This document shows positions 15,591-53,029 of a stretch of DNA of 64,000 nucleotides, one piece after another. The stretch is taken from NCBI GenBank assembly GCA_913053845.1, contig CAJXGD010000006.1, forward strand, positions 713 to 64,712, given 5' to 3'. The position numbers and the translations under genes are program-made. The DNA comes from an uncultured bacterium. GTDB taxonomy: Bacteria > Bipolaricaulota > Bipolaricaulia > RBG-16-55-9 > DRJF01. Each line of letters begins with the position of its first letter. Within the stretch, counting starts at the first letter, position 1. The notes under the pieces are model-generated. The model was given only the letters and a program-made list of their open reading frames with translations, was not told where the DNA came from and searched no databases.

Positions 15591-15598
15591 CTATAATT

Positions 15599-15792: not shown

Positions 15793-15805
15793 AAGGGCAG
15801 TTCAG

Positions 15806-15879
15806 TGGGAGATCGTCTAATGGCAGGACGACGGGTTCTGGTCCCGTTAGTGGGGGTTCGAATCCTCCTCTCCCAGCCA
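15806..15879 (+). tRNA. tRNA-Gln (anticodon CTG), CCA encoded
   Basis: Acceptor TGGGAGA/TCTCCCA (U1-A72 as in bacterial tRNA-Gln), anticodon stem ACGGG/CCCGT loop TTCTGGT (U33, CUG, G37), T arm GGGGGTTCGAATCCTCC, GCCA 3' end. Confidence 0.8.
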
Positions 15880-15890
15880 GAGTGATACTG

Positions 15891-30894: not shown

Positions 30895-30941
30895 GCGCCC
30901 ATGCTAGCGCAGCCGGGCCGGCGCAAGCAAGCAGGTGGGCT

Positions 30942-33366: not shown

Positions 33367-33468
33367 TGATCTTCTCCTTTCGTCATTTGAGCAACACAAA
33401 TCTCCCCAGACACATTCCCTAGCGTCTGGGTATGCACCCAGCTTCCCGCGCGACCGTCTAAGGTTCAG

Positions 33469-36461: not shown

Positions 36462-36926
36462 ATGGACATCGAAGCCCTCGCAGCCAAATTACACCCCGTC
36501 CTATCTACCCGGCCGGAAGTGCGACTGGCCTATCTATTCGGCTCGGCTGCCCAGGGCCGCACAAAAAATAAGCTCAGCGATCTTGATATCGCCGTGCTGG
36601 TGGACGAGGACTATTACGAAGCTCACAAGGGAGGCTTTGCCTATGAAGCGGATTTGATCAACGATCTAGTCCAGGCACTGCGAATGAACAGGATAGACCT
36701 CGTCCTGCTGCACAAATCTCCACCCCTGCTGGCTCACGAGGTCATCCGCAAGGGCCGGTTGCTCTTCTGTCGCGACGCTCACGAGCGTGTCATCTTTGAG
36801 GTGGAGGTTATGAAGCGCTACTTGGATACCCAGCCGCTACGTCAGATCAAGCGCCAGTATCTCTACGAACGCATCGAGCGCGGCGCATTCAGCGAGGTGA
36901 AGCTACCATTGTCAACCGAGAGGTAA
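36462..36926 (+). CDS. minimal nucleotidyltransferase (MNT/MntA-like antitoxin of a HepT/MntA-type TA pair)
   Basis: 154 aa; GS..x9-13..DxD pol-beta NTase motif (LFGSAAQG..LSDLDIAVLVD). Confidence 0.75.
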   Translation: MDIEALAAKLHPVLSTRPEVRLAYLFGSAAQGRTKNKLSDLDIAVLVDEDYYEAHKGGFAYEADLINDLVQALRMNRIDLVLLHKSPPLLAHEVIRKGRLLFCRDAHERVIFEVEVMKRYLDTQPLRQIKRQYLYERIERGAFSEVKLPLSTER

Positions 36927-36958
36927 TCGAGGCGCACCTGGGGAACATAGCGCTTCAT

Positions 36959-37336
36959 GTGGCCCATCTGAAGTCCTTGCGTACTCGTTCTCTGGTGGAA
37001 TTCTCGCGGGATTGGCTAGCCTTTTACGCTGCCGAACGAGGCATCCAAATTGCCGTGCAGAATCTGTTGGACATTGGTGCGCATATCCTGGCCGATTTTG
37101 GGGATTCACAATGGGACGAATACAAGCAAATCCCGGTGGAGCTGGCCCGCTATGGCGTGGTTCCTCAGGAGTACGTAGAACGAGCTCAGCGGATGGCCGG
37201 AATGCGTAACCTGTTGGTCCATCAGTACACCGAAATTGACGTAGATCAAGTCTATGAGGTGCTCAAGAACCATCTGGATGACTTCGACCGCTTTGCTGCT
37301 TATGTTAAGGCCTACTTGGATCGGTCACCACCTTGA
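36959..37336 (+). CDS. HEPN-domain protein (HepT/DUF86-like toxin)
   Basis: 125 aa from a GTG start (the reading frame is open from 36902, so the true start may overlap the MNT stop); Rx4-6H motif RNLLVHQY near the C-terminus. Confidence 0.75.
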   Translation: MAHLKSLRTRSLVEFSRDWLAFYAAERGIQIAVQNLLDIGAHILADFGDSQWDEYKQIPVELARYGVVPQEYVERAQRMAGMRNLLVHQYTEIDVDQVYEVLKNHLDDFDRFAAYVKAYLDRSPP

Positions 37337-37404: not shown

Positions 37405-39060
37405 TCAAAGATCGTTGGTAAACAGGGTGATCTCATCCGTGCCGAAGCCGATGACCGCCAAGTCCGGGAAACCCTCGCGGTCGAAATCTCCCAGCGCAAT
37501 GCCCGCCGGAGTGCCTCCGGCATGAAGCAGCTTGCGCCCACCGGCCAGAAATTCCCCGCTCGCATCGCCTAGCAGCACCGCCAGCGTGTCGTTGCCCCCG
37601 TTGGCCGTCACCAGGTCAAGCTGCCCATCACCGTTCAGATCGGCACTGGCCACCGCACGGACCTGTGAGCCCACCGGGATGATCACCCGCTGGTTAAAAT
37701 GGCCGCCGGGAGCACCGTGCAAGATGGTCAGATCGCCATCGGCAGAGTCGGCCACCGCCAAGTCCAGCCACCCATCGTGGTTGAAGTCGCCGGCAGCCAA
37801 CGCGGCCGGCCCACGGCCCACCGCCGTCTCCAGCGGCGCGGCAAAGTCGCCCCGACCGTCACCGATCAAGATGGCTACCGTATCGCCGAAGAAGTCGGCC
37901 ACGGCCAAATCCAGTCGCCCATCACCGTTGAAGTCGCCTGAGAGCAGCGCACTGGGCCAGCGGCCGGCCGGGGCATAGCGGGCCGGGGCGAAGCCACCTT
38001 GCCCATCTCCCAGCAGCAACCCGATGCGATTCTGCGGGGCATCGGCCACGGCCAGATCGAGATGGCCATCGTCGTTGAAGTCCCCCCAGCTCAGCGCCGA
38101 GACCGCTCCGGCCACCGGGAAATAGCGCAGTGGCTGAAAGCGCCCGGCCCCGCTGCCTAGCGCCAGGGAAATTTCTCCGGTCTCGAAGCTGCCGCTGGCC
38201 AGGTCCGGCAAACCGTCCTCATTGAAATCGGCCACTACCAGCGAAGAGGGCGCGTGGCGCACCGGGATATTGCCGATCTGGCTGAAGCGGCCATCGGGTT
38301 GCTGGATCAGCACCGAGATGTCGTTGCTGGCGATATTGGCCACTGCCAGGTCGAGTCGCCCGTCGCCGTCCAGATCGGCGCTGACCACTGCCACCGGCGA
38401 GCGACCCACCGGCTGGACCAGTTTCTCGCTGAAGCCGAGCGCCTGAATCTCCACCACGGCGCGATCGCTCAGGTCGGCCGCGCCGGTGACCGTCAGTGTG
38501 GCCCGGTAGCGCCCCCCACGGGCGTAACGGTGGCTCACTCGCATACCGTCGGCTCCACTGCCATCGCCAAACCCCCAATGATAGCCGATGATAACCCCGG
38601 CGTTGGGGCCGTCGGCCGGCCCCAGGGAACCGGAGCCGTCGAAGGTGACCGTCAGGGGCGCCCAGCCCCCGGTGGGACTGGCGATCAGCAGCGCCCGGGG
38701 CACCAGGTCTCCCACGGTGATGGTCAGCGCGGCCGCCCCGCTGCGCCCCCGATCGTCGCTGACCAGCAGGCGCACCCGATAGCGGCCCTTGCGGTTATAA
38801 CTGTGGATCACCTGGGAGCCTTGCGCTTGGCTACCATCGCCCAAACTCCATTGATAGCGCACCAGGGTTGCTCCGGCCGTGCCGCTCACCGAGGCTGAGC
38901 CGTCCAGATGCACCACCAGCGGCGGGGGCCCGCTGATCGGCGAGGCCTTGATCACCGCCAGCGGTGCCCCTGGCGGGCCCATCAGGCCACAGCCGCTCAA
39001 TACCAGCACCAGGCTGGCGCAGATGAGCATCAGTTTGAGCCAATTGGCAGCTTGTTTCAC
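37405..39060 (-). CDS. secreted lipoprotein with two PKD domains and FG-GAP/VCBS (integrin-alpha-like) repeats
   Basis: Lipobox LVLSGC; two PKD signatures (PLVVHLDGSASV..YQWSLGDGS; PLTVTFDGSGS..YHWGFGDGS); seven or more repeats of DFNxDGxLDLAVA. Confidence 0.7.
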   Translation of the reverse strand: MKQAANWLKLMLICASLVLVLSGCGLMGPPGAPLAVIKASPISGPPPLVVHLDGSASVSGTAGATLVRYQWSLGDGSQAQGSQVIHSYNRKGRYRVRLLVSDDRGRSGAAALTITVGDLVPRALLIASPTGGWAPLTVTFDGSGSLGPADGPNAGVIIGYHWGFGDGSGADGMRVSHRYARGGRYRATLTVTGAADLSDRAVVEIQALGFSEKLVQPVGRSPVAVVSADLDGDGRLDLAVANIASNDISVLIQQPDGRFSQIGNIPVRHAPSSLVVADFNEDGLPDLASGSFETGEISLALGSGAGRFQPLRYFPVAGAVSALSWGDFNDDGHLDLAVADAPQNRIGLLLGDGQGGFAPARYAPAGRWPSALLSGDFNGDGRLDLAVADFFGDTVAILIGDGRGDFAAPLETAVGRGPAALAAGDFNHDGWLDLAVADSADGDLTILHGAPGGHFNQRVIIPVGSQVRAVASADLNGDGQLDLVTANGGNDTLAVLLGDASGEFLAGGRKLLHAGGTPAGIALGDFDREGFPDLAVIGFGTDEITLFTNDL

Positions 39061-39128
39061 CGCTCACTCCCCGTGACTCGATTATGCCTATGATAATGAT
39101 TGATCGTCCCGGTGGCAATTCAACCCTC

Positions 39129-41339
39129 TCAGCGCCTGACTGCCAGCTTCTGCACCCCGCTGCTGACCGTCTGCCCCTGGGCGGTGTCAACCGTGACCAG
39201 ATAGAGATAGACCCCCGTGGCCACCGGGGCGCCCAGCCGATCCTGCTCTGACCAGACCAGCGCTCGCCTGATCGTGGCGCTGAAGCTGAAGACCACCCGC
39301 CCGGCCAGGTCGAATACCTGCAAGTGCCAGCCCCTCCCAGCCGCGCCGGGGGCCATAAGCGCCGACCAGAGATATCCTGAGGCCCGGCGCTGCGGTCTGA
39401 GCGCGGCCAGCTCGGCCCGCAGGGTTCGGCCCTGGCCGACCACTATCAGGCTGTCCCCCTCGACCGGCCGGCCATTGATCGTGCCCTTTAAGCGGTAGCG
39501 TCCTGGCTTGATCTCCGAGGAGAGCACCAGCGCGTAACGCAGCCAGATCGTCCGGCCCGGCGCGGCGGCCGGCCAACTCCAGGCCGAGCTTCCGGGGTCA
39601 AACTCTCCCCCGCCATTGTCCAGCGGCACGATGCGAAAACCCGCAGGCGGCTTCTCCTGCAGTCGCAGGCCGCCGAAGCGCCCCAGTGGCATTTGCAAAT
39701 TGATCGAGACGACCAGTCGCTCGCCAGGTCGGACAGCGGAGCCCGTATGCTGAACGTGACGTGCGGCGCTGGGCCAACCTAGGATCAAGTCTAGCTCGCC
39801 GGCCCCATAGGTGACGTCGGGACCGGGCGGGCCCAGATCGGTGGCGTCCCCGCGCAGAGCGGCCTTCAGTTGGGCGGTGCTCCAGCCGGGATGCTGCGAG
39901 AGCAGCAGTGCGGCCGCTCCGGCCACGTGCGGCGCGGCCGCCGAGGTCCCCAAGAAACCGCCGAATCTATTAGAGAAGAAAAGATTGTCTACCCCATCGG
40001 GTCCGACTAAATCCGGCTTGATGCGCCCATCGAAGGTGGGCCCCAGGGCGCTGAAGCTCTCCTGAGGGCCGCTGGACCAGCGCTCGCGATTGACCGCTCC
40101 CACGGCCAGCGTGCAGCTGCAGTCGGCCGGAGCGACGAGGCTGCCGTGGGGTATGGGCTTCTCAAAATATGCTCCCGACTCGATCTGAAAGAGCCGCAGC
40201 CACATCGGCCGCGTGGCCCAGTGGGCGCGGACCCGCACGAAATAGACACCGGGATGGTCAGCCACATATTGCAGCTCCTCGCGTGGTGGCTGGGTCCCCG
40301 TCTGGCGATTCTGAGAGCTGGCCAGCACCTTGCCACGGGCATCGGTGAGATAGAGATCGTAATCCTGATCGGTCGTCGGCCAGTCGTTCCAGACCAGCAC
40401 CAGGTCAATCAGGCCGCCAAGCGGCACTTTCAGCGCTAGCGACTGCTTCCCCAGGGCGAACTCGGCCCAACCGTCGTGGTTGCTGTCGCGGAAGCGGCCT
40501 ATCCAGTGCGCCTGTGCTTGATTGCCCGCCGCGTTGACCCAAAGGATCCCCGCGGCACGAGCTCGACGCGCTATCTCATTGATCAAACCCGTCCCGTCGT
40601 CGAAATCGGTATCGAACCAACCGAGCGAGCAATTGATCACCCGAACACCTAGCCGAATCGCATCATCCACGGCGTTCTCTAAGTCAACCTCATCGCCGAT
40701 CTTCATCAGATATAGCTGAGCACGCGGGGCCATCTCATGGACGATCTCGGCCACGGCGCTGCCATGCTCGCCGCCGGTCAGCAGTCCTTTGCCGGTATAG
40801 TCTTTTTTGAAGACGATCGCGCCGGCCGCCAGCACCCGGTGCTTCACCGCCCAGTAGAGCCCGGAGAAGCCGGCATCTATGATGGCTACCTTGACCCCTT
40901 GACCTTGGAAACCCTGGCTCTGGAAGAGCAGGCCACCGGTGGGCAGCAGCCCTTGGCTGAGCTGCAACTGACCCAGCGGCGCCCAGCGGTAGGGCCGACG
41001 GATATATCTGATGCCGGGGACACGGGTGGCGATCTCATTCAAGCGATCCAGCGGCAGGCGGGCGCGCAGCAGGTCGGATGAGCGCGCCTCGATCTGGGCG
41101 CCCAACTCTCGCAAGGCCGCTTGATCTATCGCGCCGCTCGCGCCTCCCAGGGGTTCGATGATCGCCGTGACAGAAGCACCCGGCCGGCTTGTGGCAGCCA
41201 GCCGGGCCAGCGAGCTCTCCAATTTGCCGCTCGGCGGAGGAGGGCCGGCTAAAGCGATGAAGGAGAGCGCAGCAAAGAGCAGCAGTAGGGGCGAAGCATT
41301 CGCAAGCCAAGAACGGCGTATCTTCTTGAATGCTTGCAC
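39129..41339 (-). CDS. subtilisin-like serine peptidase (S8) with T9SS-type C-terminal sorting-domain-like tail
   Basis: 736 aa; catalytic D (VAIIDAGF), H (HGSAVAEIV), S (GTSAAAPHVAGAAALL); C-terminal ~80 aa LQVFDLAGRVV..GVYLYLVTV..GQTVSSGVQKLAVRR shared with the three downstream paralogs; GTG start. Confidence 0.8.
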   Translation of the reverse strand: MQAFKKIRRSWLANASPLLLLFAALSFIALAGPPPPSGKLESSLARLAATSRPGASVTAIIEPLGGASGAIDQAALRELGAQIEARSSDLLRARLPLDRLNEIATRVPGIRYIRRPYRWAPLGQLQLSQGLLPTGGLLFQSQGFQGQGVKVAIIDAGFSGLYWAVKHRVLAAGAIVFKKDYTGKGLLTGGEHGSAVAEIVHEMAPRAQLYLMKIGDEVDLENAVDDAIRLGVRVINCSLGWFDTDFDDGTGLINEIARRARAAGILWVNAAGNQAQAHWIGRFRDSNHDGWAEFALGKQSLALKVPLGGLIDLVLVWNDWPTTDQDYDLYLTDARGKVLASSQNRQTGTQPPREELQYVADHPGVYFVRVRAHWATRPMWLRLFQIESGAYFEKPIPHGSLVAPADCSCTLAVGAVNRERWSSGPQESFSALGPTFDGRIKPDLVGPDGVDNLFFSNRFGGFLGTSAAAPHVAGAAALLLSQHPGWSTAQLKAALRGDATDLGPPGPDVTYGAGELDLILGWPSAARHVQHTGSAVRPGERLVVSINLQMPLGRFGGLRLQEKPPAGFRIVPLDNGGGEFDPGSSAWSWPAAAPGRTIWLRYALVLSSEIKPGRYRLKGTINGRPVEGDSLIVVGQGRTLRAELAALRPQRRASGYLWSALMAPGAAGRGWHLQVFDLAGRVVFSFSATIRRALVWSEQDRLGAPVATGVYLYLVTVDTAQGQTVSSGVQKLAVRR

Positions 41340-41356
41340 GAATGCTTCGCCCCTAC
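41285..41356. repeat. perfect 19-bp inverted repeat (AGTAGGGGCGAAGCATTCG / CGAATGCTTCGCCCCTACT) spanning the S8 gene start
   Basis: Arms at 41285-41303 (inside the signal-peptide codons) and 41338-41356 (start codon, RBS region and 3' end of the upstream gene), with a ~34-nt loop; same arm sequence as the element at 10306-10349. Confidence 0.5.
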
Positions 41357-41358
41357 TC

Positions 41359-43113
41359 TTATCTGAGGACGACCAGCTTTTTGACCCGACTGCTGAAGCT
41401 CTGTCCGTCCGCGCCCCGGACCGTCACGATATAGAGATAAACCCCGTTGGCCAGCGGCCGACCGGAGCGATCCAGCGGCCGGAAACGCAACCGGTTGCCG
41501 CTCCCTTGTAGGTCTGCGAGGGGACGGCCGTTCAGGCTGAAGAGCTGTAGCCTGACGTCGGCGATCCCCGCTCCTCGGACCTGCAATTCCGCCCGGCCAC
41601 CTGACAGCGAGCGCAGGCCGATGGAGCTTATCGCTAGAGGTGCCGCTGCCGCTGTGGGCTCTCTCATCATGCTCTGGCTGACTCCCAGGAAGCGGAGCAG
41701 GTCGCCCCAGAGGCCACCTACTGCCAGACTGGGCGGGCCGGGGGGCAGAAGCGAATTGTCCCAGCGGTTACGGTCCAGACCGGCGCTGAATAGCTTGCAA
41801 CTACCGGCCACTTTGACCCAGTAGCCCTTAAAATCATTGAGCGGCTCGCTGGGATCAATCGGCGCGTACTTGCTGCCATCGTACCACCAGGGCCCCGATT
41901 GCAGTTGACAGCCGCGAAAGATCGAGCCAATACGATTCCAGCTCTTGGAGGAGGAGATCAGATTCCAACCCTGATGCAACTCCAGATCCTGACGGACATT
42001 GGTGCCGGTCGCCTGCAGGGTGCAGGCGTTATCCACCTTGAGCCAATAACCCTTGGCCGGCTCCAGCTTGTTGGCCTGGATATAGCGGCTGCCGGTCCAC
42101 TCCCAAGGGCCGCTGGCGAACTGACAGGTGCCCTTCAGATCAGCCGGTGCAATGGTGCCCACCGGTGAGGAGATCATGTTCCAGCCGGCGTCGAGCCGCA
42201 AGATCAAGCCGGAGATCGGCACTGGAGGAGGCGGCGGCGCACCGGAGGTGGGCGGGCCGGACTCGCTGATGATGCTAAAACTGTCGGTGAGTGGGCGGTC
42301 ACTCAGGAAATTCGAGCCACAGTTGATCGGGATATCCCGTTGGCAAGGGCCGTTCTCTTTCAAAGGCGTATCGTCGGCCACCGCCAGCCGCAGCGAGACG
42401 TTAATCCGGCCGGCTGGAGCGTTGGAGCCGATGTCCACAGTGAAGTAGAGCAGCAGCGGCGTCGTCTCGCCACCCAGGCCGGCGGCGTAGACCGGCTGTA
42501 GGTTTTGGCTGGTCATGATCCAATCTTGCTGGCGCCCGAAGCGGGCGACGGCCTGCCCATTGCTGTTGGTAAATTGAACCGGCACCCGGGCTATCAGCTC
42601 GTTGGCCTGGAAGAGGATGCCATCTCCACCTCCACTAAAAGGAGGGAGAGGGAAGCCATCGGTGTAGACACGCAAAGTCTTGAGTGCCTTGGCGCCCGGT
42701 CCGCTAAAGGTGATCACCCCGCCCTTGATGCCGGTGGCCAGGCCATCGGCTCCGCCGGTCTTGGCCGGCTTGGGCGTGCAGCCTAAGATCGCCAAGCCGC
42801 CGGAGATGGCCATCGGCGTGCCCGGCAGAGAAGGGACGATCTTAGCGGTAGTATTATTCAGCACTCCGCCGTCACAGATGCCCACCACAATGGCCAGCGC
42901 CTCATCGGTGCCCGGGTTGATCTGTCGCGCTTGATCCCGTGTCAGCAGGTTGGTCAGGTGAATCACCTGGATGTCGCTCTCCGCTAGGCCGCTGCCGGCC
43001 AGATAGCCTGGTAAAGGCGCCGCTGAGGCCCTCCCGCCGCCGGTCCCAAATCCCACCAGCAGCAGGACGGACGACAGCAGCGCCACCAGAACAGTCCGCA
43101 TGCTATACTTCAT
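41359..43113 (-). CDS. secreted repeat protein, paralog 1 (shared N-terminal domain, 2 Trp/Cys-rich modules, T9SS-type CTD-like tail)
   Basis: 584 aa; signal peptide; N-terminal domain ~65% similar to paralog 2; two modules of the form GWNMISSPV..C..GPWEW.G..Y..A..LEPAKGYWLKV..C; CTD ..GVYLYIVTVRGADGQSFSSRVKKLVVLR. Confidence 0.6.
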   Translation of the reverse strand: MKYSMRTVLVALLSSVLLLVGFGTGGGRASAAPLPGYLAGSGLAESDIQVIHLTNLLTRDQARQINPGTDEALAIVVGICDGGVLNNTTAKIVPSLPGTPMAISGGLAILGCTPKPAKTGGADGLATGIKGGVITFSGPGAKALKTLRVYTDGFPLPPFSGGGDGILFQANELIARVPVQFTNSNGQAVARFGRQQDWIMTSQNLQPVYAAGLGGETTPLLLYFTVDIGSNAPAGRINVSLRLAVADDTPLKENGPCQRDIPINCGSNFLSDRPLTDSFSIISESGPPTSGAPPPPPVPISGLILRLDAGWNMISSPVGTIAPADLKGTCQFASGPWEWTGSRYIQANKLEPAKGYWLKVDNACTLQATGTNVRQDLELHQGWNLISSSKSWNRIGSIFRGCQLQSGPWWYDGSKYAPIDPSEPLNDFKGYWVKVAGSCKLFSAGLDRNRWDNSLLPPGPPSLAVGGLWGDLLRFLGVSQSMMREPTAAAAPLAISSIGLRSLSGGRAELQVRGAGIADVRLQLFSLNGRPLADLQGSGNRLRFRPLDRSGRPLANGVYLYIVTVRGADGQSFSSRVKKLVVLR

Positions 43114-43199
43114 GTTGACCTCCCCTTGGATTCATGTTGAGGGATAAATGCCTCGCAGCTTCTTTATACCTCAACCGGATAAGGGGAGGCACGACGGTC

Positions 43200-45425
43200 C
43201 TAACGTAATAGTAGGAGTTTCCGCACCTCGCTGCTGGTCGCCTGTCCGTCCGCGCCCTTGACCGTCACGATATAGAGATAGACCCCGTTGGCCAAGGGTC
43301 GCCCCTGCCGGCCGAGGGTGGCCAGATGCAACCGGTTGCCTCTCCCGCGCGCCTGGGCGACCAACGTGCCGGCCAGATCATAGAGGCGCAGCTCACTGTG
43401 CCCGATGCCTCTGCCAAGCACCTGCAGCTCAAGGCCTGACCCTACCTGACTGAGCCGAACGCCTTCCAGACGCAAGGGCACAGCCTGCTGTGCTATAGAG
43501 CTGAATTCAGAGGCCGGTGCTGCGCCCTTGCCGGACAGTCCTTGGCTGTTCACGTTGCAGCCCTGGCTCACCTTGGCCCAGTAGCCCTTAAAGCCGTTTA
43601 GCGGCGTGCCAGGGGCGATCTGCTTATACTGCTTGCCATTCCACCACCAGGGACCGGAGAGCAGCGTGCAGCCGCCGGTATTGAGCTGGTTCCAGCTCCC
43701 GGAAGATGAGATCAGATTCCAGCCGGGGCTCAGGGCCAGGCTCTGGGGAAAGCTCCCTGACGAAGGTGGAGTTTGCAGGGTGCAAGGCACTCCAACCTTG
43801 ACCCAATAGCCCTTAGCCGACTCCAGGGTAGATGCTTGCTCGTAACGGGTTCCGGTCCACCACCAGGGGCCGCTGCTGAAGAGACAGTCGCCCTGCACTG
43901 CCGAGAGGGGCACCGAGCGGATCGGAGAGGAGATCATGTTCCAGCCGACATGTAATTTGAGCGTGGGGCTCAAGCCGCCGGGAGGGGCGGGGGGTTGCGA
44001 TTGTAGGGGCGAAGCATTTTCAACTGGCAGCCGGGGTATGGGGTTGAGCTCAGGGACCCATGCTGCGCCCTTATCTTGCCCCTGCGCGCTCTGGCTGCTG
44101 ACGCTGCAACCGGCCCCGACCTTGACCCAATAGCCCTTGAAATCCTCCATGGAGGTGCCGGAAGCCACCTGCTGGTACCGGGTGCCGTCGTACCACCAGG
44201 GACCGGAGAGCAGCGTGCAGCCACCGGTATTAAGCTGGTTCCAACTCCCAGATGACGAGATCAAATTCCAGCCGCCGACCAAGCTTAGACTCTGCGGGGC
44301 GTTGCTGCCTGAGGCCTGCATGGTGCAAGCTCCGGCCACTTGGACCCAATAGCCCTTGGCCGGCTCGATGGTGCCCGCCTGCTGGTAGCTGGAGCCGCTC
44401 CACCACCAGGGGCCACCGGTGACGCTGCAGTTGCCTTGCAGCGAGCTGAGCGGCACCGAGCCCACCGGCGAGGAGATCATGTTCCAGCCGGCGTGCAGAC
44501 TCAATGAGAGCCCTCCGCCTGGCGGCGCCGGCGGCGGGGTTCCGCCACCTGGAGCGGCCCCGCCGACGATCTCGAAGCTGTTCATCTCCGGGCCGCTCTT
44601 CATGAAGTTCGAGCCACAGTTGATTCCTAACAACAGGAACCGAGCACAGATGCCGCCGGCTCCTTGCGCGGTATCATCGCCGGCGCCAACTCCCAAGGCG
44701 ACGTTGACACGGCCGCTGGTGGCATCTTGCCCGATGTCCACGGTGAAGTAAAGTAACTCCGGTCGCGTCTGACCGTTTACCCCAAATGCAACGACGGGTG
44801 CGCCGTTGCGGGCGGAGAGGATCTGCTCTTGAGTGCGACCGAACTGGGCGATCGCCTCGCCGGTGCCCGTATTGAACCGGGCGGTCACCTGTTGGATCAG
44901 CTCCGCCGGCTCAAAGAGCCGCCCATTGCCGCCGCCCTTGTAGGGACCTACCGGTGGCAGGACCGGGGCATCCACATACATACGCACGGTGCGAATGAAC
45001 CTGGCTCCCGGTCCGCTGAAGACGAGAATCGCGCTGTTGACTCCGGTGGCTAGCCCGTCCGAGCCACCTGTCAAGGCGCCTCCTGAGGGTATGCAGGGAA
45101 TGGCTGCCAGGCCGCCGGCGATGGTCGCGGTGGCTCCGGCGACCGGCACCAGCAGGGTGGCGCTGGTGTTGGCCAGTACGCCCCCGTCGCAGATGCCGAC
45201 CATGATGGCCAGCACCCCGCTGGTGCCAGGTGTGATCTGGGTACCGCGATTTCGGGTGAGCAGTCCGGAGATATGAATCGTCTGAATGTCGGACTCGGCG
45301 TTGCCGCTGCCGTTGGAGAGATTCGGAATGGGTGAGGCCCCGGCAGTTGCAGCCGGACCGAATGAGGTAATGATTAGTGCCAATACTACGAAGGCTAAGC
45401 TGAACGCCTTGAGTTTGAGATTCAT
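43200..45425 (-). CDS. secreted repeat protein, paralog 2 (4 Trp/Cys-rich modules, T9SS-type CTD-like tail)
   Basis: 741 aa; signal peptide; the same N-terminal domain as paralog 1; four modules (two near-identical pairs separated by Pro/Gly linkers); CTD ..GVYLYIVTVKGADGQATSSEVRKLLLLR. Confidence 0.6.
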   Translation of the reverse strand: MNLKLKAFSLAFVVLALIITSFGPAATAGASPIPNLSNGSGNAESDIQTIHISGLLTRNRGTQITPGTSGVLAIMVGICDGGVLANTSATLLVPVAGATATIAGGLAAIPCIPSGGALTGGSDGLATGVNSAILVFSGPGARFIRTVRMYVDAPVLPPVGPYKGGGNGRLFEPAELIQQVTARFNTGTGEAIAQFGRTQEQILSARNGAPVVAFGVNGQTRPELLYFTVDIGQDATSGRVNVALGVGAGDDTAQGAGGICARFLLLGINCGSNFMKSGPEMNSFEIVGGAAPGGGTPPPAPPGGGLSLSLHAGWNMISSPVGSVPLSSLQGNCSVTGGPWWWSGSSYQQAGTIEPAKGYWVQVAGACTMQASGSNAPQSLSLVGGWNLISSSGSWNQLNTGGCTLLSGPWWYDGTRYQQVASGTSMEDFKGYWVKVGAGCSVSSQSAQGQDKGAAWVPELNPIPRLPVENASPLQSQPPAPPGGLSPTLKLHVGWNMISSPIRSVPLSAVQGDCLFSSGPWWWTGTRYEQASTLESAKGYWVKVGVPCTLQTPPSSGSFPQSLALSPGWNLISSSGSWNQLNTGGCTLLSGPWWWNGKQYKQIAPGTPLNGFKGYWAKVSQGCNVNSQGLSGKGAAPASEFSSIAQQAVPLRLEGVRLSQVGSGLELQVLGRGIGHSELRLYDLAGTLVAQARGRGNRLHLATLGRQGRPLANGVYLYIVTVKGADGQATSSEVRKLLLLR

Positions 45426-45448
45426 CTATGTTCCCCCTTGATTATACG

Positions 45449-45565
45449 CCGGGGATTGAAATCCCCGGCTACGGTGAGGCATAAAACCCCTACGGGGTTC
45501 CAGGTCGTGAACCCTCGTGAGAGGGTTTCCCTGACGTCACGTAGCCGGGAAATTCATTTCCCGGT
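45449..45565. repeat. structured intergenic element, copy A (four hairpins plus a closing long-range helix)
   Basis: Hairpins CCGGGGA-TTGAAA-TCCCCGG, CCCC-TA-GGGG, AACCCTC-GTGA-GAGGGTT, CCGGGAAA-TTCA-TTTCCCGG; CCGGCTACG pairs with the distal CGTAGCCGG; ~80% identical to copy B at 61361-61474 with compensatory changes. Confidence 0.45.
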
Positions 45566-45568
45566 CTC

Positions 45569-47197
45569 CTATCGCAGCACGACCAGCTTCTTGACCTCAC
45601 TGGTGATCATTTGTCCGTCCGCGCTCTTGACAGTCACGATGTAGAGATAGACACCATTGGCCAGCGGTCGTCCCTCGCGACTCAAAGCCATCAGGCGCAG
45701 CCGGTTCCCTGTCCCTTGGGCCTGCACGATCAACCGGCCGGCCAGAGTGTAGAGACGCAGCTCGGTGCTCTCGATGGCGCTGCCAGCCACTTGCAAGCGG
45801 ATGCTGGAACCCTGAGCGCTCAAGCGCACGCTTTGCAATTGCAAGGGTGCGGCGCCGGCTGAGGGAGGCCTGGGGAACCCTCCAAATGCAGGGGGCATGC
45901 CGTTACTCCTCTCCTGAACCACCGCCGACTGGCTGCTCACGGTACAACCGCCGCCCACTTTCGCCCAATAACCCTTGAAGCCCTCCATCGGCGTGGCAGG
46001 AGGCACCTGCTGATACCGCGTGCCATCGTACCACCAGGGGCCGGAGAGCAAGGTGCAGCCTCCAGTGTTCATCTGGTTCCAGCTCCCGGATGAAGATATC
46101 AGGTTCCAGCCGCTCACCAAGCTCAGGCTCTGCGGAGATGAGCTGCCGCCCGCCTGCATGGTGCAAGGGCTACCCACTTTGACCCAGTAGCCTTTGGCCG
46201 GCTCCAATACAGAAGCCAACTGATAGGCGGTACCATTCCACTCCCAGGGGCCGCCGCTGAAGGAGCAGTTGCCCTGCAGTGAAGAGATAGGTGAGGAGCT
46301 GACCGGGGTGGAGATCATGTTCCAACCGGCGTGCAAGCTCAGTGAGAGTCCACCTGCGCCCGGCGGAGGTGGCGGAGCCCCGCCACCCGATCCACCACCA
46401 GGCGCGGTTCCACCGATGATGTGCAGCGTGATATTACTCCCTTGCGGATTGGCCGAGGCGCCGAAGCTGTCGCTCACCCGCGCCCCGCCTACCGGTCCGC
46501 CTCCGGCCAGCGCTCCGGGGATGTCGCCGGCCACCGCTTCCAGTTGTAGGGCAAAGTCCGAGCCGCTCACCGGGTTGGGTCCAATCTTGACCACGGCCAA
46601 CAGCGAGACGGCACAGAAGTTAGCCCCTGCCACCCCCACCGTCCTGCACAATGTTCCTCCTCCCACCGAAGTGAGCGTAAAGACTGGACTGGCCCCACCG
46701 TTGGAGAAGAGCGCCTTGCCGGCGTCCAAATCGGCACCGGTGTAGGTTCTGCCCACCGGCAGGTCAATGCCGGGGTCGAAGCGTCCGTTGAAGTTGCTGT
46801 CCTGATAGATGGTCATCTCTTGGATATCGGCATCGCGGGCGTTGGTAATGGTCGTGGTGATCAGCGCGCCCATCACGTTGAGCGGCCACATACTCCCTGG
46901 GGTACAGTTGCCTGATGCCACGACGCCGGTGTGGGCCACGTAGTCATTGGCCAGCACCCAGGCGCCGGCCACCGCCGTGCTATTGGGACTGACGGTGAGC
47001 GAAGAGGGTATGCCGGTGGTGGTGAACTGATCGGTGGCCAGCACTGCGCCGGTGGGACAGCCGCTGGCGGGGACGAGCCCCGGCAAGCTGAGGTAGGCCG
47101 AGCCGTTCACCCCCAACAGGAAGGTCGCCAGCAGTCCAACCAGCAAAGCAGCCATCGGCCATCTCAGTCGGGAACGGTCTATCATCTTGAGCCTCAT
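45569..47197 (-). CDS. secreted repeat protein, paralog 3 (distinct N-terminal domain, 2 Trp/Cys-rich modules, T9SS-type CTD-like tail)
   Basis: Start set at MRLKMIDRSRLRWPMAALLVGLL (signal peptide; the ORF track extends to 47290); different N-terminal domain but the same module pair and CTD ..GVYLYIVTVKSADGQMITSEVKKLVVLR. Confidence 0.6.
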   Translation of the reverse strand: MRLKMIDRSRLRWPMAALLVGLLATFLLGVNGSAYLSLPGLVPASGCPTGAVLATDQFTTTGIPSSLTVSPNSTAVAGAWVLANDYVAHTGVVASGNCTPGSMWPLNVMGALITTTITNARDADIQEMTIYQDSNFNGRFDPGIDLPVGRTYTGADLDAGKALFSNGGASPVFTLTSVGGGTLCRTVGVAGANFCAVSLLAVVKIGPNPVSGSDFALQLEAVAGDIPGALAGGGPVGGARVSDSFGASANPQGSNITLHIIGGTAPGGGSGGGAPPPPPGAGGLSLSLHAGWNMISTPVSSSPISSLQGNCSFSGGPWEWNGTAYQLASVLEPAKGYWVKVGSPCTMQAGGSSSPQSLSLVSGWNLISSSGSWNQMNTGGCTLLSGPWWYDGTRYQQVPPATPMEGFKGYWAKVGGGCTVSSQSAVVQERSNGMPPAFGGFPRPPSAGAAPLQLQSVRLSAQGSSIRLQVAGSAIESTELRLYTLAGRLIVQAQGTGNRLRLMALSREGRPLANGVYLYIVTVKSADGQMITSEVKKLVVLR

Positions 47198-47319
47198 ATC
47201 TGCCTCCTTTGCGTAGAGTTGATGATCACGAGATTCGGCATGGAGCATTCTAGCAGAGAGATGGGGAGAGGACCAAATAGCTAAAATCAAGAGCAGAGGC
47301 TACCTATGCGGTGCCCCGC

Positions 47320-51166: not shown

Positions 51167-53029
51167 TCAAGCTGGCCGGCGACGGACCCACTCGAAAGCC
51201 GTCCAGCCGACCAGGAGGAGCAGCACCACCAGCAGAACGGTCAGCGAGTCGCGGCTGCCCAGTGGCTGCCCTGCCTCGGAGCTCTGGCCGGTACTCTGGA
51301 GCGTTTTGACCTGCTGGCTGAGCGCAGTTAATTGGGTCTTGGAGCGCTTTTGCTCCTGAGTCAGTTGGCCGGAGAGTGCCTGCACTTGCCGTTGCAGCGC
51401 GGCCAGTTGGCCAGAGAGCACCTCCACTTGCCGTTGCAGCGGTTGCAGCGCGGCCAGTTGACTAGAGAGCGCCTGCTGGGTTTGCAGTTGCTCTTGCAAG
51501 CTCTCTTCGAGCTGTGTCAGCCGCTCCGGCAGCTTTTGCTCAGCCAGACCCTGTAAGGCGGCCAACTGTCGGCGCATGACCTGCAGTGCGATGCTGTCGC
51601 TTTGGGGAAAGCCCCAACTAGGCCTGGAAAACTCCTGGCCCTGCCAGCGGCCGATCCAGTTCAGCCGGGCGGCCAGATAGAGCGCGCCGCCGCTGACAAA
51701 GCGCCGGTTGACCGGTTGCCAACGGCCGCTTGTGGGGTCAAACCGCACCGAGGCCGTGAAGACCGGCGCGCGACCGAACTTGCTGACGATGGCCCCCGAG
51801 GGGCTCTGAGGACGGGCGGCCTGCAGGGCGCCGTTGAAGAATTTGGCATACTGGCTCTGAACCTTGGCTCTGTCCTGCTTATTCAGTTCTGCCAGATGGA
51901 TGATCGCGTTGAAGGCGCCGACCGCATCGCCCAGCTCTTGGACCGAATAGAGATAAACGGGTGCATCGCCCGCGCGGGAGGCGAATAGCTCAGCTTGGGG
52001 GTCCCAGAGCTTTTGCAGCCCCTTCCACTGCCGCAGCGCCTCCAGGAGCACCGTCCGCTCACCGCTAAGCCGATAAACGCTGAGCAGCGCGGTCACCGCC
52101 TCGGCCTGCGCTGACCAGTCGCCCTGAGCCGAGCTGAGCCGGGGCAGCATCTCGCGGATGAGCTGCAATACCGGCCTGATCTCCTGGGGGCTGCTCAGCG
52201 TGGCGGCATAGGAGACCAGCGCCTCGACCCCCAGGCCGGCCTCGCGGGGGCTTAGCTCAGAGGCCCGGCGCAGCAGCCCCTGGCCGCCGCTCAGAGCGCT
52301 AAAGAGCTGCCGGGCCATTTGCCGGGCTTGCTCAGGCGAGACCAGGATGTTCCCACCCGGCGGGCTGGCGGTGGCCAGCTTGGACCAGGCCCAGAGCAGG
52401 GTGATCTGATCCAGCGGCAGAAAAGCACGATCCACGATGGCCCCGCCGCGCCAGCCGTGAAAATACAGGCCAGTCTGGGGATCGCGCAGGTTGGTCTGAG
52501 CGAAGAGCGTCCCCAGTAGGGCCAGCCGCCCCAAGAGCCGGCCCTCCCAGCTTTGTACTGCCCGGCGCTGGACGTCCGGTGCGGGCTCTCGCTCGAAACG
52601 CTTGACCCAAGCCAGCTCGTTGATGATGGCCCAGGCCAGCGCTTGCGGGCTGACCGTGCGGTCCATCTTCGCCGGGTCCCAATGTAGGGTCTGGGCATTG
52701 ACTGGCTCAGGCTGTTGAACGTAAGCGGGATCCCCCGAAGCGTAAGGTGCCTGCACCAGAAAGGCGTTGCGCCACGGTGGTCTGTTCAAGCCGGCCTGGC
52801 GCAGCAGCGCGGCAGCCGCCGGGGCGGGCAGGCGAAAAGCCACGCCCATACCGGACTGCAGCGTCAAGGCCAGGAGGTTATCCAGTGCCGCTTGGGCCGA
52901 ATCCTCTTGAGCGCTCTGCCAGGAGCTCTGCTGCGACTCTAGGGAGAGCGCCGGCAGGGCCGATGAGCTTAACAGTGCTATCAGCACCGTCACCATCACC
53001 AATGAGCGCACGGCTATCTTGGCTCGCAC
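51167..53029 (-). CDS. membrane-anchored protein with large N-terminal domain, coiled-coil heptad repeats and C-terminal TM anchor (hypothetical)
   Basis: 620 aa; signal-like N-terminus; ~100 aa of LAALQ..LSGQLAALQRQVQALSGQL repeats; C-terminal LTVLLVVLLLLVGWTAFEWVRRRPA. Confidence 0.5.
   Translation of the reverse strand: MRAKIAVRSLVMVTVLIALLSSSALPALSLESQQSSWQSAQEDSAQAALDNLLALTLQSGMGVAFRLPAPAAAALLRQAGLNRPPWRNAFLVQAPYASGDPAYVQQPEPVNAQTLHWDPAKMDRTVSPQALAWAIINELAWVKRFEREPAPDVQRRAVQSWEGRLLGRLALLGTLFAQTNLRDPQTGLYFHGWRGGAIVDRAFLPLDQITLLWAWSKLATASPPGGNILVSPEQARQMARQLFSALSGGQGLLRRASELSPREAGLGVEALVSYAATLSSPQEIRPVLQLIREMLPRLSSAQGDWSAQAEAVTALLSVYRLSGERTVLLEALRQWKGLQKLWDPQAELFASRAGDAPVYLYSVQELGDAVGAFNAIIHLAELNKQDRAKVQSQYAKFFNGALQAARPQSPSGAIVSKFGRAPVFTASVRFDPTSGRWQPVNRRFVSGGALYLAARLNWIGRWQGQEFSRPSWGFPQSDSIALQVMRRQLAALQGLAEQKLPERLTQLEESLQEQLQTQQALSSQLAALQPLQRQVEVLSGQLAALQRQVQALSGQLTQEQKRSKTQLTALSQQVKTLQSTGQSSEAGQPLGSRDSLTVLLVVLLLLVGWTAFEWVRRRPA

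What the first reader, a model, noticed from the sequence alone, without database searches (positions are those of the whole stretch)
37405..47290. Six-gene secreted-protein locus unified by a shared T9SS-type C-terminal sorting-domain-like tail, including an S8 subtilase
The S8 peptidase (39129-41339) and the three repeat proteins all end in the same ~70-80-aa tail (..L.L.D..GR.V........L....L.......GVYLY(I/L)VTV......S...(K/R)KL(V/L)..R). This matches the Por_Secre_tail / T9SS type-A CTD pattern (G.Y......G......KK(L/I)(I/V)K) and equally the FlgD-Ig-like C-terminal domains used outside Bacteroidetes. An FG-GAP/PKD lipoprotein sits at the 3' end of the same strand block. Co-located protease plus substrates sharing one sorting signal suggests a dedicated secretion, processing and attachment module. 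The window contains no T9SS core genes (porK/L/M/N, sov), so the export route is open.
Basis: partly seen in the sequence, partly recalled or inferred. Interest (0 to 1): 0.6.

Follow-up and report, generated by a model that had tools for sequence, protein, structure and literature searches.

The report
T9SS-like sorting tails outside Bacteroidota
Four neighbouring secreted proteins of an uncultured Fraserbacteria bacterium, one of them a subtilisin-type protease, end in the same small folded tail related to the type IX secretion sorting domain of Bacteroidota; relatives encode the matching PorV-like outer-membrane barrel right next to such genes, in a lineage not known to have this secretion system.

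Summary
The minus-strand block has five genes, not six. Four products (an S8 peptidase and three repeat proteins) end in one ~80-aa tail; the FG-GAP/PKD lipoprotein does not.

The tail is a divergent member of the T9SS C-terminal domain (CTD)/FlgD-Ig beta-sandwich superfamily:
- A tail profile finds the CTDs of PorU (E 1.4e-5) and PorZ in the PDB.
- The AlphaFold model (pLDDT 93) superposes on solved T9SS CTDs at about 2 Å.
- The functionally important Gly and Lys motifs are conserved.
- All four window tails nevertheless score below the curated cut-offs: TIGR04183 14-22 vs 23 bits, CHU_C 12-20 vs 27. PF18962 and FlgD_ig give no hit.

The window comes from Candidatus Fraserbacteria, a sister lineage of Thermotogae outside the FCB group. 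In Fraserbacteria, Bipolaricaulota and Acetothermia the tail is strictly C-terminal (126 of 131 cases) and sits on many unrelated passenger proteins.

The main new result concerns the relatives. They encode PorV/PorQ-family outer-membrane barrels directly downstream of tail genes (17 of 17), one of them inside the syntenic island of the nearest relative. The window has none, and no translocon or motor genes could be searched for.

Most likely this is a T9SS-like sorting/anchoring signal. The claim of a dedicated protease module is only partly supported.

The parts
37405..39060 (-). Lipoprotein with 2 PKD domains and a 7-repeat FG-GAP (integrin-like) beta-propeller. It has no tail.
   Evidence: PF13517 at 206 bits, PF18911 at 108 bits and PF01839 at 104 bits. 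Lipobox LSGC at residues 21-24 and seven D[FL]N.DG..DL loops. Full-length orthologs lie next to the S8 ortholog in L001, L084 and L086.
39129..41339 (-). Secreted S8 (subtilisin-family) peptidase. Order of parts: signal peptide, propeptide-like region, catalytic domain with a PPC-like insert, an Ig-like domain, then the tail.
   Evidence: PF00082 at 109 bits. Motifs around the catalytic residues are present: IIDAGF at 153, HGSAV at 192, NCSLG at 236, GTSAAAPH at 464. More than 100 full-length homologs at 43-66% identity, some named Candidatus Bipolaricaulia or Acetothermia.
40200..40442 (-). PPC-like beta-sandwich insert within the S8 catalytic domain (about residues 300-380).
   Evidence: PF04151 at 24.3 bits and TIGR04183 at 20.7 bits on this segment alone. 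This explains the two-stretch 28.5-bit TIGR04183 total for the whole S8 protein.
39129..39368 (-). Tail of the S8 peptidase (last ~79 aa; the most divergent copy).
   Evidence: Tail HMM 83.8 bits. TIGR04183 16.8, CHU_C 20.2 and the PorU CTD part 22.9 bits.
41359..43113 (-). R1: signal peptide, N-domain B, Pro-rich linker, 2 Cys-containing GWN[ML]IS...KGYWVKV repeats, tail.
   Evidence: AF2 model m6a72a44c5e7b: N-domain mostly pLDDT >85, tail >90. No Pfam family.
41359..41610 (-). Tail of R1.
   Evidence: Tail HMM 112.7 bits. TIGR04183 14.4 and CHU_C 11.6 bits.
41779..42210 (-). Repeat pair of R1 (GWNMISSP... and GWNLISSS... units).
43200..45425 (-). R2: signal peptide, N-domain B, 4 repeats (two pairs), tail.
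   Evidence: N-domain 49% identical to that of R1.
43200..43451 (-). Tail of R2.
   Evidence: Tail HMM 105.7 bits. TIGR04183 18.2 and CHU_C 19.5 bits.
45569..47197 (-). R3: signal peptide, N-domain A (unrelated to B), 2 repeats, tail. The start is taken as the ATG of P0011; the longest ORF reaches 47290.
45569..45823 (-). Tail of R3.
   Evidence: Tail HMM 115.4 bits. TIGR04183 21.6 and CHU_C 18.4 bits. AF2 model of this tail has pLDDT 92.9.

Best explanation
This is a five-gene cell-surface protein locus of a Candidatus Fraserbacteria bacterium. Four products are exported by Sec signal peptides and end in a divergent T9SS-type C-terminal domain (CTD) of the PorU/PorZ-like subtype.

**Shown**
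- The tail is a compact Ig-like beta-sandwich.
- It is homologous to T9SS CTDs and keeps their two functional motifs.
- It is strictly C-terminal.
- In Fraserbacteria, Bipolaricaulota and Acetothermia it is attached to many unrelated passenger proteins.
- In these lineages PorV/PorQ-family outer-membrane beta-barrel genes lie directly downstream of a subset of tail genes.

**Inferred**
- The tail is a sorting and anchoring signal that docks the passenger on a PorV/PorQ-like barrel in the toga-like outer membrane.
- The window's four tail genes are 'orphans' served by a barrel encoded elsewhere in the genome, as orphan type B cargo are in Flavobacterium johnsoniae.
- The S8 peptidase is itself a surface-anchored cargo, working with its conserved FG-GAP/PKD lipoprotein neighbour. 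The repeat proteins are surface or adhesin-like proteins of unknown activity.

**Not established:** how the passengers cross the outer membrane.
For: **Shared tail.** Four ORFs carry it and no others in the window do.

**Homology**
- Tail profile against the PDB: PorU CTD E 1.4e-5, PorZ CTD E 4.5e-4. With the 115-sequence profile: PorZ 5.5e-5, PorU 2.4e-4, FspA CTD 0.015.
- All four tails hit TIGR04183 and the CTD parts of the PorU and/or PorZ models, all below cut-off.
- Of 115 tails from these lineages, 46 match the PorU CTD, 32 TIGR04183 and 17 PorZ at E<=6e-5.

**Fold**
- The tail model (pLDDT 92.9) gives TM 0.76 to the PorU CTD.

**Motifs.** G30 is invariant and lies in the loop before the fourth strand. 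K80 is nearly invariant and lies in the last strand. These correspond to motif Lβ3β4 and motif C-t., shown to be needed for secretion in PMC11285876.

**Position**
- 126 of 131 tail matches end within 3 residues of the ORF end.
- The single-stretch hits among 1.84 billion representative proteins show the same.

**Spread.** 258 confirmed relatives from one peptide pattern. The best 80 are almost all Fraserbacteria, Bipolaricaulota or Acetothermia genomes assembled from metagenomes (MAGs).

**Partner barrel**
- L004:2729-3637 lies inside the syntenic island of the nearest relative. It scores 94.2 bits against the PorV/PorQ family model NF033709 (cut-off 90).
- Nine further barrels from these lineages score 51-88 bits, E 1e-13 to 1e-25.
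- Their profile finds F. johnsoniae PorV at E 2e-16.
- All 17 such ORFs in the genome loci directly follow a tail ORF on the same strand.
- The known analogue is the cognate shuttle gene directly downstream of type B CTD genes (PMC12618676).
Against: - No window tail reaches the curated cut-off of TIGR04183 or CHU_C, and PF18962 and PF13860 give no hit.
- The window has no PorV-like gene and no other T9SS gene among the ORFs scanned.
- The translocon (SprA/Sov), the motor and ring proteins (PorK/L/M/N) and a PorU-type sortase could not be searched for in any genome of these lineages.
- T9SS is reported only from the FCB superphylum/Bacteroidota (PMC11205867, PMC4793230). Fraserbacteria are placed in Terrabacteria beside Thermotogae (bioRxiv 10.1101/2021.05.31.446380).
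- The fold is generic. FN3, FlgD and CopC domains score almost as well.
- Related domains occur as 5-33 internal tandem copies in giant proteins.
- Most barrels from these lineages fall below the 90-bit cut-off, and none reaches the PorV or PorQ equivalog scores.
Confidence: 0.55

Rival explanations
1. The tail is only a generic Ig-like (FlgD-Ig/FN3-type) structural, spacer or adhesion module spread by domain shuffling. It has no role in sorting. The proteins are ordinary Sec-exported envelope proteins, and the neighbouring barrels are unrelated FadL-type transporters.
For: - All curated CTD models are below threshold on the window tails.
- 24 of 115 tails from these lineages hit FlgD_ig.
- FlgD, FN3 and CopC are among the best fold matches.
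- The C5a-peptidase Fn3-like domain shares the W..G..ANG.Y.Y core.
- About 20 giant proteins carry 5-33 internal copies of a related domain.
- In L078 the domain lies near the N-terminus.
Against: - The position is strictly C-terminal in 126 of 131 cases and on very diverse passengers.
- The final K-L-V-V-L-R strand and the loop glycine are conserved, and these are the two motifs needed for T9SS export (PMC11285876).
- Stand-alone proteins made only of a signal peptide and the tail exist.
- All 17 PorV-like genes sit directly downstream of tail genes.
- The barrels match PorV at E 2e-16, against 2e-3 for TodX.
Confidence: 0.22
2. The organism has a complete canonical T9SS elsewhere in its genome (SprA/Sov translocon, PorK/L/M/N, PorU/PorV/PorQ/PorZ attachment complex). 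The four proteins are ordinary type A cargo whose tails are cleaved and replaced by a lipid or LPS anchor.
For: - Homology of the tail to CTDs.
- PorV/PorQ-family barrels in relatives.
- Sec signal peptides on all cargo.
Against: - Published surveys find T9SS only in the FCB superphylum/Bacteroidota (PMC4793230, PMC11205867).
- No literature links Bipolaricaulota or Acetothermia to T9SS.
- No core gene was seen in the window or among the neighbours scanned in the fetched loci.
- The tails are closest to the PorU and PorZ CTDs, which are the ones not cleaved in P. gingivalis (PMC11285876).
- The barrels from these lineages are far below the PorV and PorQ equivalog scores.
Confidence: 0.12
3. 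The locus is a self-contained processing module. The tail-bearing S8 peptidase is the dedicated enzyme that matures or removes the tails of the adjacent repeat proteins, as a functional analogue of PorU. The FG-GAP beta-propeller lipoprotein is its partner, as an analogue of PorZ.
For: - An array of tail proteins followed by the S8 peptidase and the FG-GAP protein is conserved in GCA_973788475.1.
- An array of A/B-domain tail proteins plus the S8 ortholog lies on one Acetothermia contig (L074 and L026).
- The S8/FG-GAP pair is conserved in L084 and L086 with the gene order inverted.
- In L081 an S8-tail gene is directly followed by a PorV-like gene, as porU is by porV (the porU-porV adjacency is from my own knowledge).
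- The S8 ortholog is widely conserved at full length.
Against: - In L084, L086 and L085 the S8 ortholog has no tail protein directly beside it.
- S8 peptidases are among the commonest T9SS cargo classes (PMC11205867), so a tail-bearing subtilase is expected as plain cargo.
- PorU is a cysteine peptidase, and only its CTD matches here.
- There is no biochemical evidence.
Confidence: 0.15

Closest known systems
T9SS type A C-terminal sorting domain (TIGR04183 / PF18962), especially the uncleaved CTDs of P. gingivalis PorU and PorZ
   Same: - Extreme C-terminal position on Sec-exported proteins.
- ~80-aa Ig-like beta-sandwich that superposes at about 2 Å on solved CTDs.
- Conserved loop glycine and last-strand lysine.
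- The W..G..(A/S)NG.Y.Y segment that PorU and PorZ also have.
- Attached to proteases and adhesin-like passengers.
- PorV/PorQ-family barrels are encoded in the same lineages.
(PMC11285876)
   Different: - The window tails score below the curated cut-offs.
- The host is a Fraserbacteria bacterium (Terrabacteria, sister of Thermotogae), not a member of the FCB superphylum.
- No translocon, motor or sortase genes have been identified.
- Whether the tail is cleaved is unknown.
T9SS type B CTD (CHU_C, PF13585 / TIGR04131) with its cognate PorP/SprF shuttle gene immediately downstream
   Same: - CHU_C is the commonest Pfam match of the tail family (61 of 115 at E<=1e-3).
- The gene order 'tail gene, then outer-membrane barrel gene directly downstream', together with 'orphan' tail genes that lack a barrel, mirrors F. 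johnsoniae (PMC12618676).
   Different: - The barrels here belong to the PorV/PorQ family (NF033709); no PorP/SprF model was listed for them.
- CHU_C scores on the window tails are 11.6-20.2 bits against a cut-off of 27.
- The window has no barrel gene.
FlgD Ig-like domain (PF13860) and the Fn3-like domains of C5a peptidase and cell-envelope proteinases
   Same: Same beta-sandwich fold and the same W.G.D..G..v.nG.Y core.
   Different: - Those domains are internal and have no sorting role.
- The window tails give no PF13860 hit.
- They end in the conserved K-L-V-V-L-R strand at the very C-terminus.
Secreted subtilases with C-terminal sorting or anchor domains (for example the KLIKK peptidases of Tannerella forsythia such as mirolase)
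   Same: An S8 catalytic domain followed by a CTD that ends in a lysine-containing last strand. The mirolase CTD is a top structural match (PMC11285876).
   Different: The lineage is different. The S8 here has a PPC-like insert and an additional Ig-like domain. Its conserved neighbour is an FG-GAP/PKD lipoprotein.

Membership tests
T9SS type A CTD (TIGR04183 / PF18962) | The domain lies at the extreme C-terminus of the protein. | tested here: met
   All four window tails end at the stop codon. 126 of 131 matches in related loci end within 3 residues of the ORF end. Single-stretch hits in 1.84 billion representative proteins are nearly all C-terminal.
T9SS type A CTD (TIGR04183 / PF18962) | The score reaches the curated model cut-off (TIGR04183 23 bits; PF18962 27 bits). 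| tested here: not met
   Tails scanned alone score 16.8, 14.4, 18.2 and 21.6 bits against TIGR04183, with no PF18962 hit. The whole S8 protein reaches 28.5 bits only by adding the PPC-like insert. In the wider family, 32 of 115 tails reach E<=6e-5.
T9SS type A CTD (TIGR04183 / PF18962) | Compact Ig-like 3+4 beta-sandwich that superposes on solved CTDs. | tested here: met
T9SS type A CTD (TIGR04183 / PF18962) | Conserved glycine of motif Lβ3β4 and conserved lysine in the last strand (motif C-t.). | tested here: met
   G30 is invariant and K80 nearly invariant in the 25-sequence alignment. They align with the PorU sequences 'DFTGRLV' and 'KKMIVV'. The motifs are as defined in PMC11285876.
T9SS type A CTD (TIGR04183 / PF18962) | N-terminal Sec signal peptide on the same protein. 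| tested here: met
   By inspection of the N-termini. No signal-peptide predictor was available.
T9SS (whole system) | PorV/PorQ-family outer-membrane shuttle or anchor barrel encoded in the genome. | tested here: inconclusive
The syntenic island of the nearest relative has one that passes NF033709 (94.2 vs 90 bits). At least 10 MAGs of these lineages have divergent ones next to tail genes.
T9SS (whole system) | SprA/Sov translocon, PorK/L/M/N ring and motor, PorU sortase. | not testable with these tools
   Only the window and stretches of up to 10 kb either side of matches could be read. Nothing of the kind appeared among the window ORFs and neighbours scanned. One 1485-aa ORF after a PorV-like gene (L121) has no PDB relative.
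T9SS (whole system) | The host belongs to the FCB superphylum/Bacteroidota. | tested here: not met
   Window proteins are identical or nearly identical to NCBI entries of Candidatus Fraserbacteria bacterium (taxonomy). Fraserbacteria are placed beside Thermotogae and Bipolaricaulota in Terrabacteria (bioRxiv 10.1101/2021.05.31.446380).
T9SS type B CTD (CHU_C, PF13585) | The score reaches the gathering cut-off (27 bits). | tested here: not met
   20.2, 11.6, 19.5 and 18.4 bits. In the wider family, 61 of 115 tails match at E<=1e-3.
T9SS type B CTD (CHU_C, PF13585) | Cognate shuttle barrel gene directly downstream of the cargo gene. | tested here: not met
   No barrel gene follows any of the four window genes. 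In relatives, 17 of 17 PorV-like ORFs follow a tail ORF, but they are PorV/PorQ-type.
FlgD Ig-like domain (PF13860) | Match to the Pfam model. | tested here: not met
   No hit at E<=10 for the four window tails. 24 of 115 family members hit at E<=1e-3. FlgD structures are fold matches with TM 0.56-0.66.
Peptidase S8 (subtilase) | Pfam PF00082 above cut-off, with the Asp/His/Ser catalytic motifs. | tested here: met
   109.2 bits against a cut-off of 21.8. Motifs found: IIDAGF at 153, HGSAV at 192, NCSLG at 236, GTSAAAPH at 464.
PorU (T9SS sortase, NF033707) | Full-length match including the gingipain-like cysteine peptidase domain. | tested here: not met
   Only profile positions ~1025-1095 (the CTD) match, at 13-23 bits against a cut-off of 420.
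FG-GAP / PKD repeat proteins | Pfam FG-GAP_3 / FG-GAP and PKD above cut-off. | tested here: met
   PF13517 at 205.8 bits, PF01839 at 103.7 bits, PF18911 at 107.7 bits.

The most novel reading that the evidence does not exclude
Fraserbacteria, Bipolaricaulota and Acetothermia are diderm Terrabacteria with a toga-like outer membrane, lying outside the FCB group. They may possess a reduced or ancestral CTD-dependent surface-sorting pathway. In it, PorU/PorZ-type tails dock on PorV/PorQ-family barrels without the canonical SprA/PorKLMN machinery. The conserved tail-bearing S8 peptidase would serve as the processing enzyme (a functional analogue of PorU), and its FG-GAP beta-propeller lipoprotein neighbour as its partner (a functional analogue of PorZ). 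That would make the attachment half of the T9SS older and more widespread than the secretion system itself.
Probability: 0.15. Interest if true: 0.8.

Novelty: new variant of a known kind. Interest (0 to 1): 0.5.

Why it matters
T9SS and its CTD signal are treated as a hallmark of Bacteroidota and the FCB superphylum (PMC4793230, PMC11205867).

Here a CTD-like tail is used on a large scale in a lineage beside Thermotogae. It is strictly C-terminal, sits on many passenger types, and is genetically coupled to PorV/PorQ-like barrels.

If it is functional, three things follow:
- It gives a handle on how proteins are sorted to the poorly understood toga-like outer envelope of uncultured Terrabacteria.
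- It bears on the origin of the T9SS attachment complex.
- It offers a practical marker, the tail HMM, for predicting the surface proteome of these uncultured lineages (proteases, adhesin-like repeat proteins).

For the window alone the result is more modest. It holds four orphan cargo-like genes, with no machinery in view.

Tried and rejected
- **Source contig look-ups.** Exact look-ups of P0011 and of two other window proteins found nothing. Only an 11.7 kb near-identical contig was found, so the rest of the source genome could not be read.
- **Foldseek on the full-length R1 model.** This gave only low-TM multi-domain Ig/FN3 matches. The tail had to be modelled alone.
- **Third word-indexed protein search, with the tail profile.** It returned only 24 short proteins and no useful names.
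- **Neighbours of the conserved tail-only mini-protein.** I looked for machinery and found housekeeping genes (ETF, TsaB, RibF, ABC transporter) plus a CARDB protein.
- **Unknown genes beside the S8 ortholog in L084 and L086 (130, 357 and 486 aa).** No family hits.
- **1485-aa ORF after a PorV-like gene (L121), a possible translocon.** No PDB relative.
- **Recent duplication or gene conversion as the cause of the shared tail.** Rejected: DNA identity is 62-72%.
- **Promoter and terminator scan.** It did not define an operon.
- **Literature searches linking Bipolaricaulota, Acetothermia, Fraserbacteria or Thermotogae with T9SS or PorV.** Nothing relevant was found.
- **Contamination as the source of the PorV-like genes.** Rejected for L004/L001: the barrel lies on the same 184 kb contig, inside the island orthologous to the window locus.

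Full report
**1. What is in the sequence**

Five ORFs lie head to tail on the minus strand between 37405 and 47290.

| Gene | Coordinates | Length | Content |
|---|---|---|---|
| FG-GAP/PKD lipoprotein | 37405-39060 | 551 aa | 2 PKD domains, FG-GAP repeats, no tail |
| S8 peptidase | 39129-41339 | 736 aa | subtilase plus tail |
| R1 | 41359-43113 | 584 aa | N-domain B, 2 repeats, tail |
| R2 | 43200-45425 | 741 aa | N-domain B, 4 repeats, tail |
| R3 | 45569-47290 | 573 aa | N-domain A, 2 repeats, tail |

- The gaps between genes are 19-143 nt, and both flanks are plus-strand genes. Downstream is a nucleotidyltransferase/HepT-like pair. Upstream are a putative tRNA-binding protein and an ABC transporter, by my reading. 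There is no sixth gene.
- R3 probably starts at the ATG at 47197, which gives the 542-aa database protein P0011.
- Pfam confirms the subtilase (PF00082, 109 bits). It also confirms two PKD domains plus FG-GAP repeats in the lipoprotein, and finds nothing in R1-R3.
- The S8 peptidase has the Asp, His, Asn and Ser motifs. The lipoprotein has a lipobox and seven calcium-loop-like D[FL]N.DG..DL repeats, consistent with a seven-bladed propeller.
- R1 and R2 share N-domain B (49% identity). R3 has an unrelated N-domain A. All three have pairs of ~60-aa Cys-containing repeats (GWN[ML]IS...GPWW..G..Y...KGYWVKV).

**2. The shared tail is real**

- The last ~80 residues of the S8 peptidase, R1, R2 and R3 align along their whole length.
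- An HMM of the tail scores these four ORFs at 84-115 bits and nothing else in the six-frame translation of the window.
- DNA identity between the tails is only 62-72%. The similarity is therefore kept at the protein level and is not a recent copy.

**3. What the tail is**

*Curated models.*
- Scanned alone, the tails score 14.4-21.6 bits against TIGR04183 (cut-off 23) and 11.6-20.2 bits against CHU_C (cut-off 27).
- They match the C-terminal ~70 positions of the PorU and/or PorZ models.
- They do not hit PF18962 or FlgD_ig.
- The 28.5-bit TIGR04183 total for the S8 protein comes from adding a PPC-like insert at residues ~320-372.
- By the letter of the curated thresholds, the window tails are not members.

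*Profile and structure evidence for homology.*
- A 25-sequence tail profile finds the PorU CTD (6za2, residues 1084-1154 of 1156, E 1.4e-5) and the PorZ CTD (5m11, E 4.5e-4) as best PDB matches.
- A 115-sequence profile finds PorZ, PorU and the FspA CTD.
- Of 115 tails from related genomes, 46 hit the PorU CTD, 32 TIGR04183 and 17 PorZ at E<=6e-5. In Pfam, 61 hit CHU_C, 24 FlgD_ig and 15 Por_Secre_tail at E<=1e-3.
- The AlphaFold model of the tail (pLDDT 92.9) is a beta-sandwich with TM 0.76 to the PorU CTD.

*Motifs.*
- The most conserved positions of the family are a glycine in the loop before the fourth strand, the NG.YLY strand, and a lysine in the last strand (K-L-V-V-L-R).
- The glycine and the lysine correspond to the two motifs shown by mutagenesis to be needed for T9SS export (PMC11285876).
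- The W..G..ANG segment aligns with the same segment of PorU and PorZ. PMC11285876 describes an extra hairpin in their CTDs in that part of the domain. Those CTDs are not removed after secretion.

**4. Organism and spread**

- The window's proteins are identical or nearly identical to NCBI entries of Candidatus Fraserbacteria bacterium. There they are named 'hypothetical protein' or 'PKD domain-containing protein' (taxonomy).
- Fraserbacteria and Bipolaricaulota are reported as sister phyla of Thermotogae in Terrabacteria, with an Ompα/Ompβ-type outer-membrane tether (bioRxiv 10.1101/2021.05.31.446380).
- The window also encodes Lnt and di-myo-inositol-phosphate synthesis genes.
- A scan of one genome per species with the motif [PM][LV]ANG[VT]YLY gave 258 confirmed relatives. 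The best 80 are almost all Fraserbacteria, Bipolaricaulota or Acetothermia MAGs, often with several loci per genome. Weaker matches are in Ignavibacteria and Bacteroidota.
- In these loci the tail ends within 3 residues of the ORF end in 126 of 131 cases. It sits on proteins of 85 to about 1750 aa.
- Against 1.84 billion representative proteins the profile finds 6784 proteins at E<=1e-3 and 1445 at E<=1e-10. Single-copy matches are nearly all C-terminal. About 20 giant proteins carry many internal copies of a related domain.

**5. The partner barrel**

- The nearest relative with a long contig (GCA_973788475.1) has a larger syntenic island. In aa lengths it reads 1269, 302, 899, 537 (R3 ortholog), 470, 575 (R2), 364, 322, 582 (R1), 766 (S8), 549 (FG-GAP/PKD). 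Nine of the eleven products carry the tail.
- The 302-aa product has no tail. It is a PorV/PorQ-family protein: NF033709 at 94.2 bits against a cut-off of 90, E 1e-26, covering nearly the whole model.
- Nine further barrels from MAGs of these lineages score 51-88 bits. An Ignavibacteria control scores 310 bits.
- Their profile finds F. johnsoniae PorV at E 2e-16, and the next family (TodX) only at 2e-3.
- All 17 such ORFs in the genome loci lie directly downstream of a tail-bearing ORF on the same strand. In L081 that upstream gene is an S8-tail homolog (330 bits).
- A metagenome scan found 497 relatives of the barrel. Of 72 barrels with enough upstream sequence, 21 follow a CTD-like gene by HMM. 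About 24 more do so by eye, with a subtype ending ...VFINR.
- This is the arrangement known for type B CTD cargo and their cognate PorP/SprF shuttle genes, where 'orphan' cargo share a shuttle encoded elsewhere (PMC12618676).
- The window itself has no PorV-like ORF.

**6. The protease and its neighbours**

- The S8 ortholog is conserved at full length in many genomes: the 120 homologs listed are at 43-96% identity, more than 100 of them at 43-66%.
- Arrays of A/B-domain tail proteins lie beside it in the window, in GCA_973788475.1, and on one Acetothermia contig (L074 plus L026).
- A full-length ortholog of the FG-GAP/PKD lipoprotein lies next to the S8 ortholog in two more distant Fraserbacteria loci, with the gene order inverted.
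- In a Bipolaricaulia locus the S8 gene stands alone among housekeeping genes.
- The S8/FG-GAP pair is therefore the most stable linkage. The link to the repeat proteins recurs but is not universal.

**7. Interpretation**

- *Shown:* the homology, the fold, the motif conservation, the strict C-terminal position, the lineage-wide use, and the genetic coupling to PorV/PorQ-like barrels.
- *Inferred:* the tail directs or anchors Sec-exported proteins to such a barrel in the outer envelope. The window's four genes are orphan cargo. The S8 peptidase is a surface-anchored enzyme.
- *Unknown:* the route across the outer membrane, whether the tail is cleaved, what domains A and B and the repeats do, and whether the S8 peptidase acts on its neighbours.
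- Surveys place T9SS only in the FCB superphylum/Bacteroidota (PMC4793230, PMC11205867). I found no paper linking these lineages to T9SS.
- I put 0.55 on the sorting/anchoring reading, 0.22 on a generic Ig-like module, about 0.12 on a complete canonical T9SS, and about 0.15 on the S8 peptidase as a dedicated processing enzyme. The last overlaps with the first.

**8. Verdict**

The item is a new variant of a known kind: a CTD plus PorV-like module in a non-FCB lineage. In this window it is represented only by four cargo-like genes and a conserved lipoprotein neighbour.

Noticed in passing
window 14160-15800: Low-GC stretch (GC 0.505 in the 14001-16000 window, against about 0.62 elsewhere) with no long ORF. 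The ORF at 14262-14624 reads like the C-terminal part of an IS1595-type transposase (my reading of the sequence). It lies just upstream of tRNA-Gln at 15806-15879. Probably a remnant of an insertion next to a tRNA gene.
   Followed up: partly
window 36462-37336: A nucleotidyltransferase plus HepT-like (HEPN) pair, i.e. a toxin-antitoxin-type module, lies directly downstream of the locus on the other strand. It has the same position in the near-identical 11.7 kb contig L087.
   Followed up: partly
window 29275-33399: Apolipoprotein N-acyltransferase (Lnt, 29275-30894). Next to it are a nucleotidyltransferase/CDP-alcohol phosphatidyltransferase fusion (30942-32267) and myo-inositol-1-phosphate synthase (32206-33399). 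Together these look like a di-myo-inositol-phosphate pathway, an osmolyte typical of hyperthermophiles (the pathway assignment is from my own knowledge).
   Followed up: no
window 28008-29303: Another probable exported protein with a PKD domain and PD40 beta-propeller repeats, but without the tail.
   Followed up: no
window 51167-53029 and 61554-62897: Two sizeable ORFs (620 and 447 aa) with no Pfam or NCBIfam family. The first has only weak coiled-coil-type matches near its C-terminus.
   Followed up: partly
L061, L068, L071, L072, L073, L076, L080, L082 (e.g. L068:5956-6258): A conserved ORF of about 80-100 aa made only of a signal peptide and the tail. Its start overlaps the end of an upstream ~440-aa CARDB protein that has no tail. 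The same housekeeping neighbourhood surrounds it in eight Bipolaricaulota/Fraserbacteria genomes. It resembles the CTD-only protein PorA of P. gingivalis, or a cargo split from its tail.
   Followed up: partly
L091-L113 (metagenome loci), e.g. L113:3259-7367 and 8013-12148: A distinct subtype of cassette. A ~1000-1200-aa protein ending ...W.G....ANG.Y.YV...DGTNTF.GKG.VFINR is directly followed by a PorV-like barrel. The cassette is duplicated in tandem in L113.
   Followed up: partly
L081:9035-12216 (minus strand): An S8-tail peptidase gene is immediately followed by a PorV-like barrel gene, the same order as porU-porV in P. gingivalis (the P. gingivalis gene order is from my own knowledge).
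   Followed up: partly
L121:3409-7863: A 1485-aa ORF directly after a tail gene and a PorV-like gene. It ends in a beta-signal-like ...GLKASF and has no PDB sequence relative. It could be another outer-membrane component.
   Followed up: partly
L078:5839-7263: A rare exception to the C-terminal rule. The tail domain lies directly after the signal peptide of a 475-aa protein. The rest of that protein looks like a tail-fibre / S74-type intramolecular-chaperone protein, by my reading.
   Followed up: no
P0195, P0201, P0282 and about 20 others: Giant proteins (up to 4886 aa) with 5-33 internal tandem copies of a domain matching the core of the tail profile. The fold is therefore also used as an ordinary repeat module.
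   Followed up: no
P0018-P0020, P0023-P0033: In relatives, N-domains A and B are combined with dockerin/EF-hand-like segments (D.NGNG.IDD.E...W) in place of the GWN[ML]IS repeats. The passenger architecture is modular.
   Followed up: no
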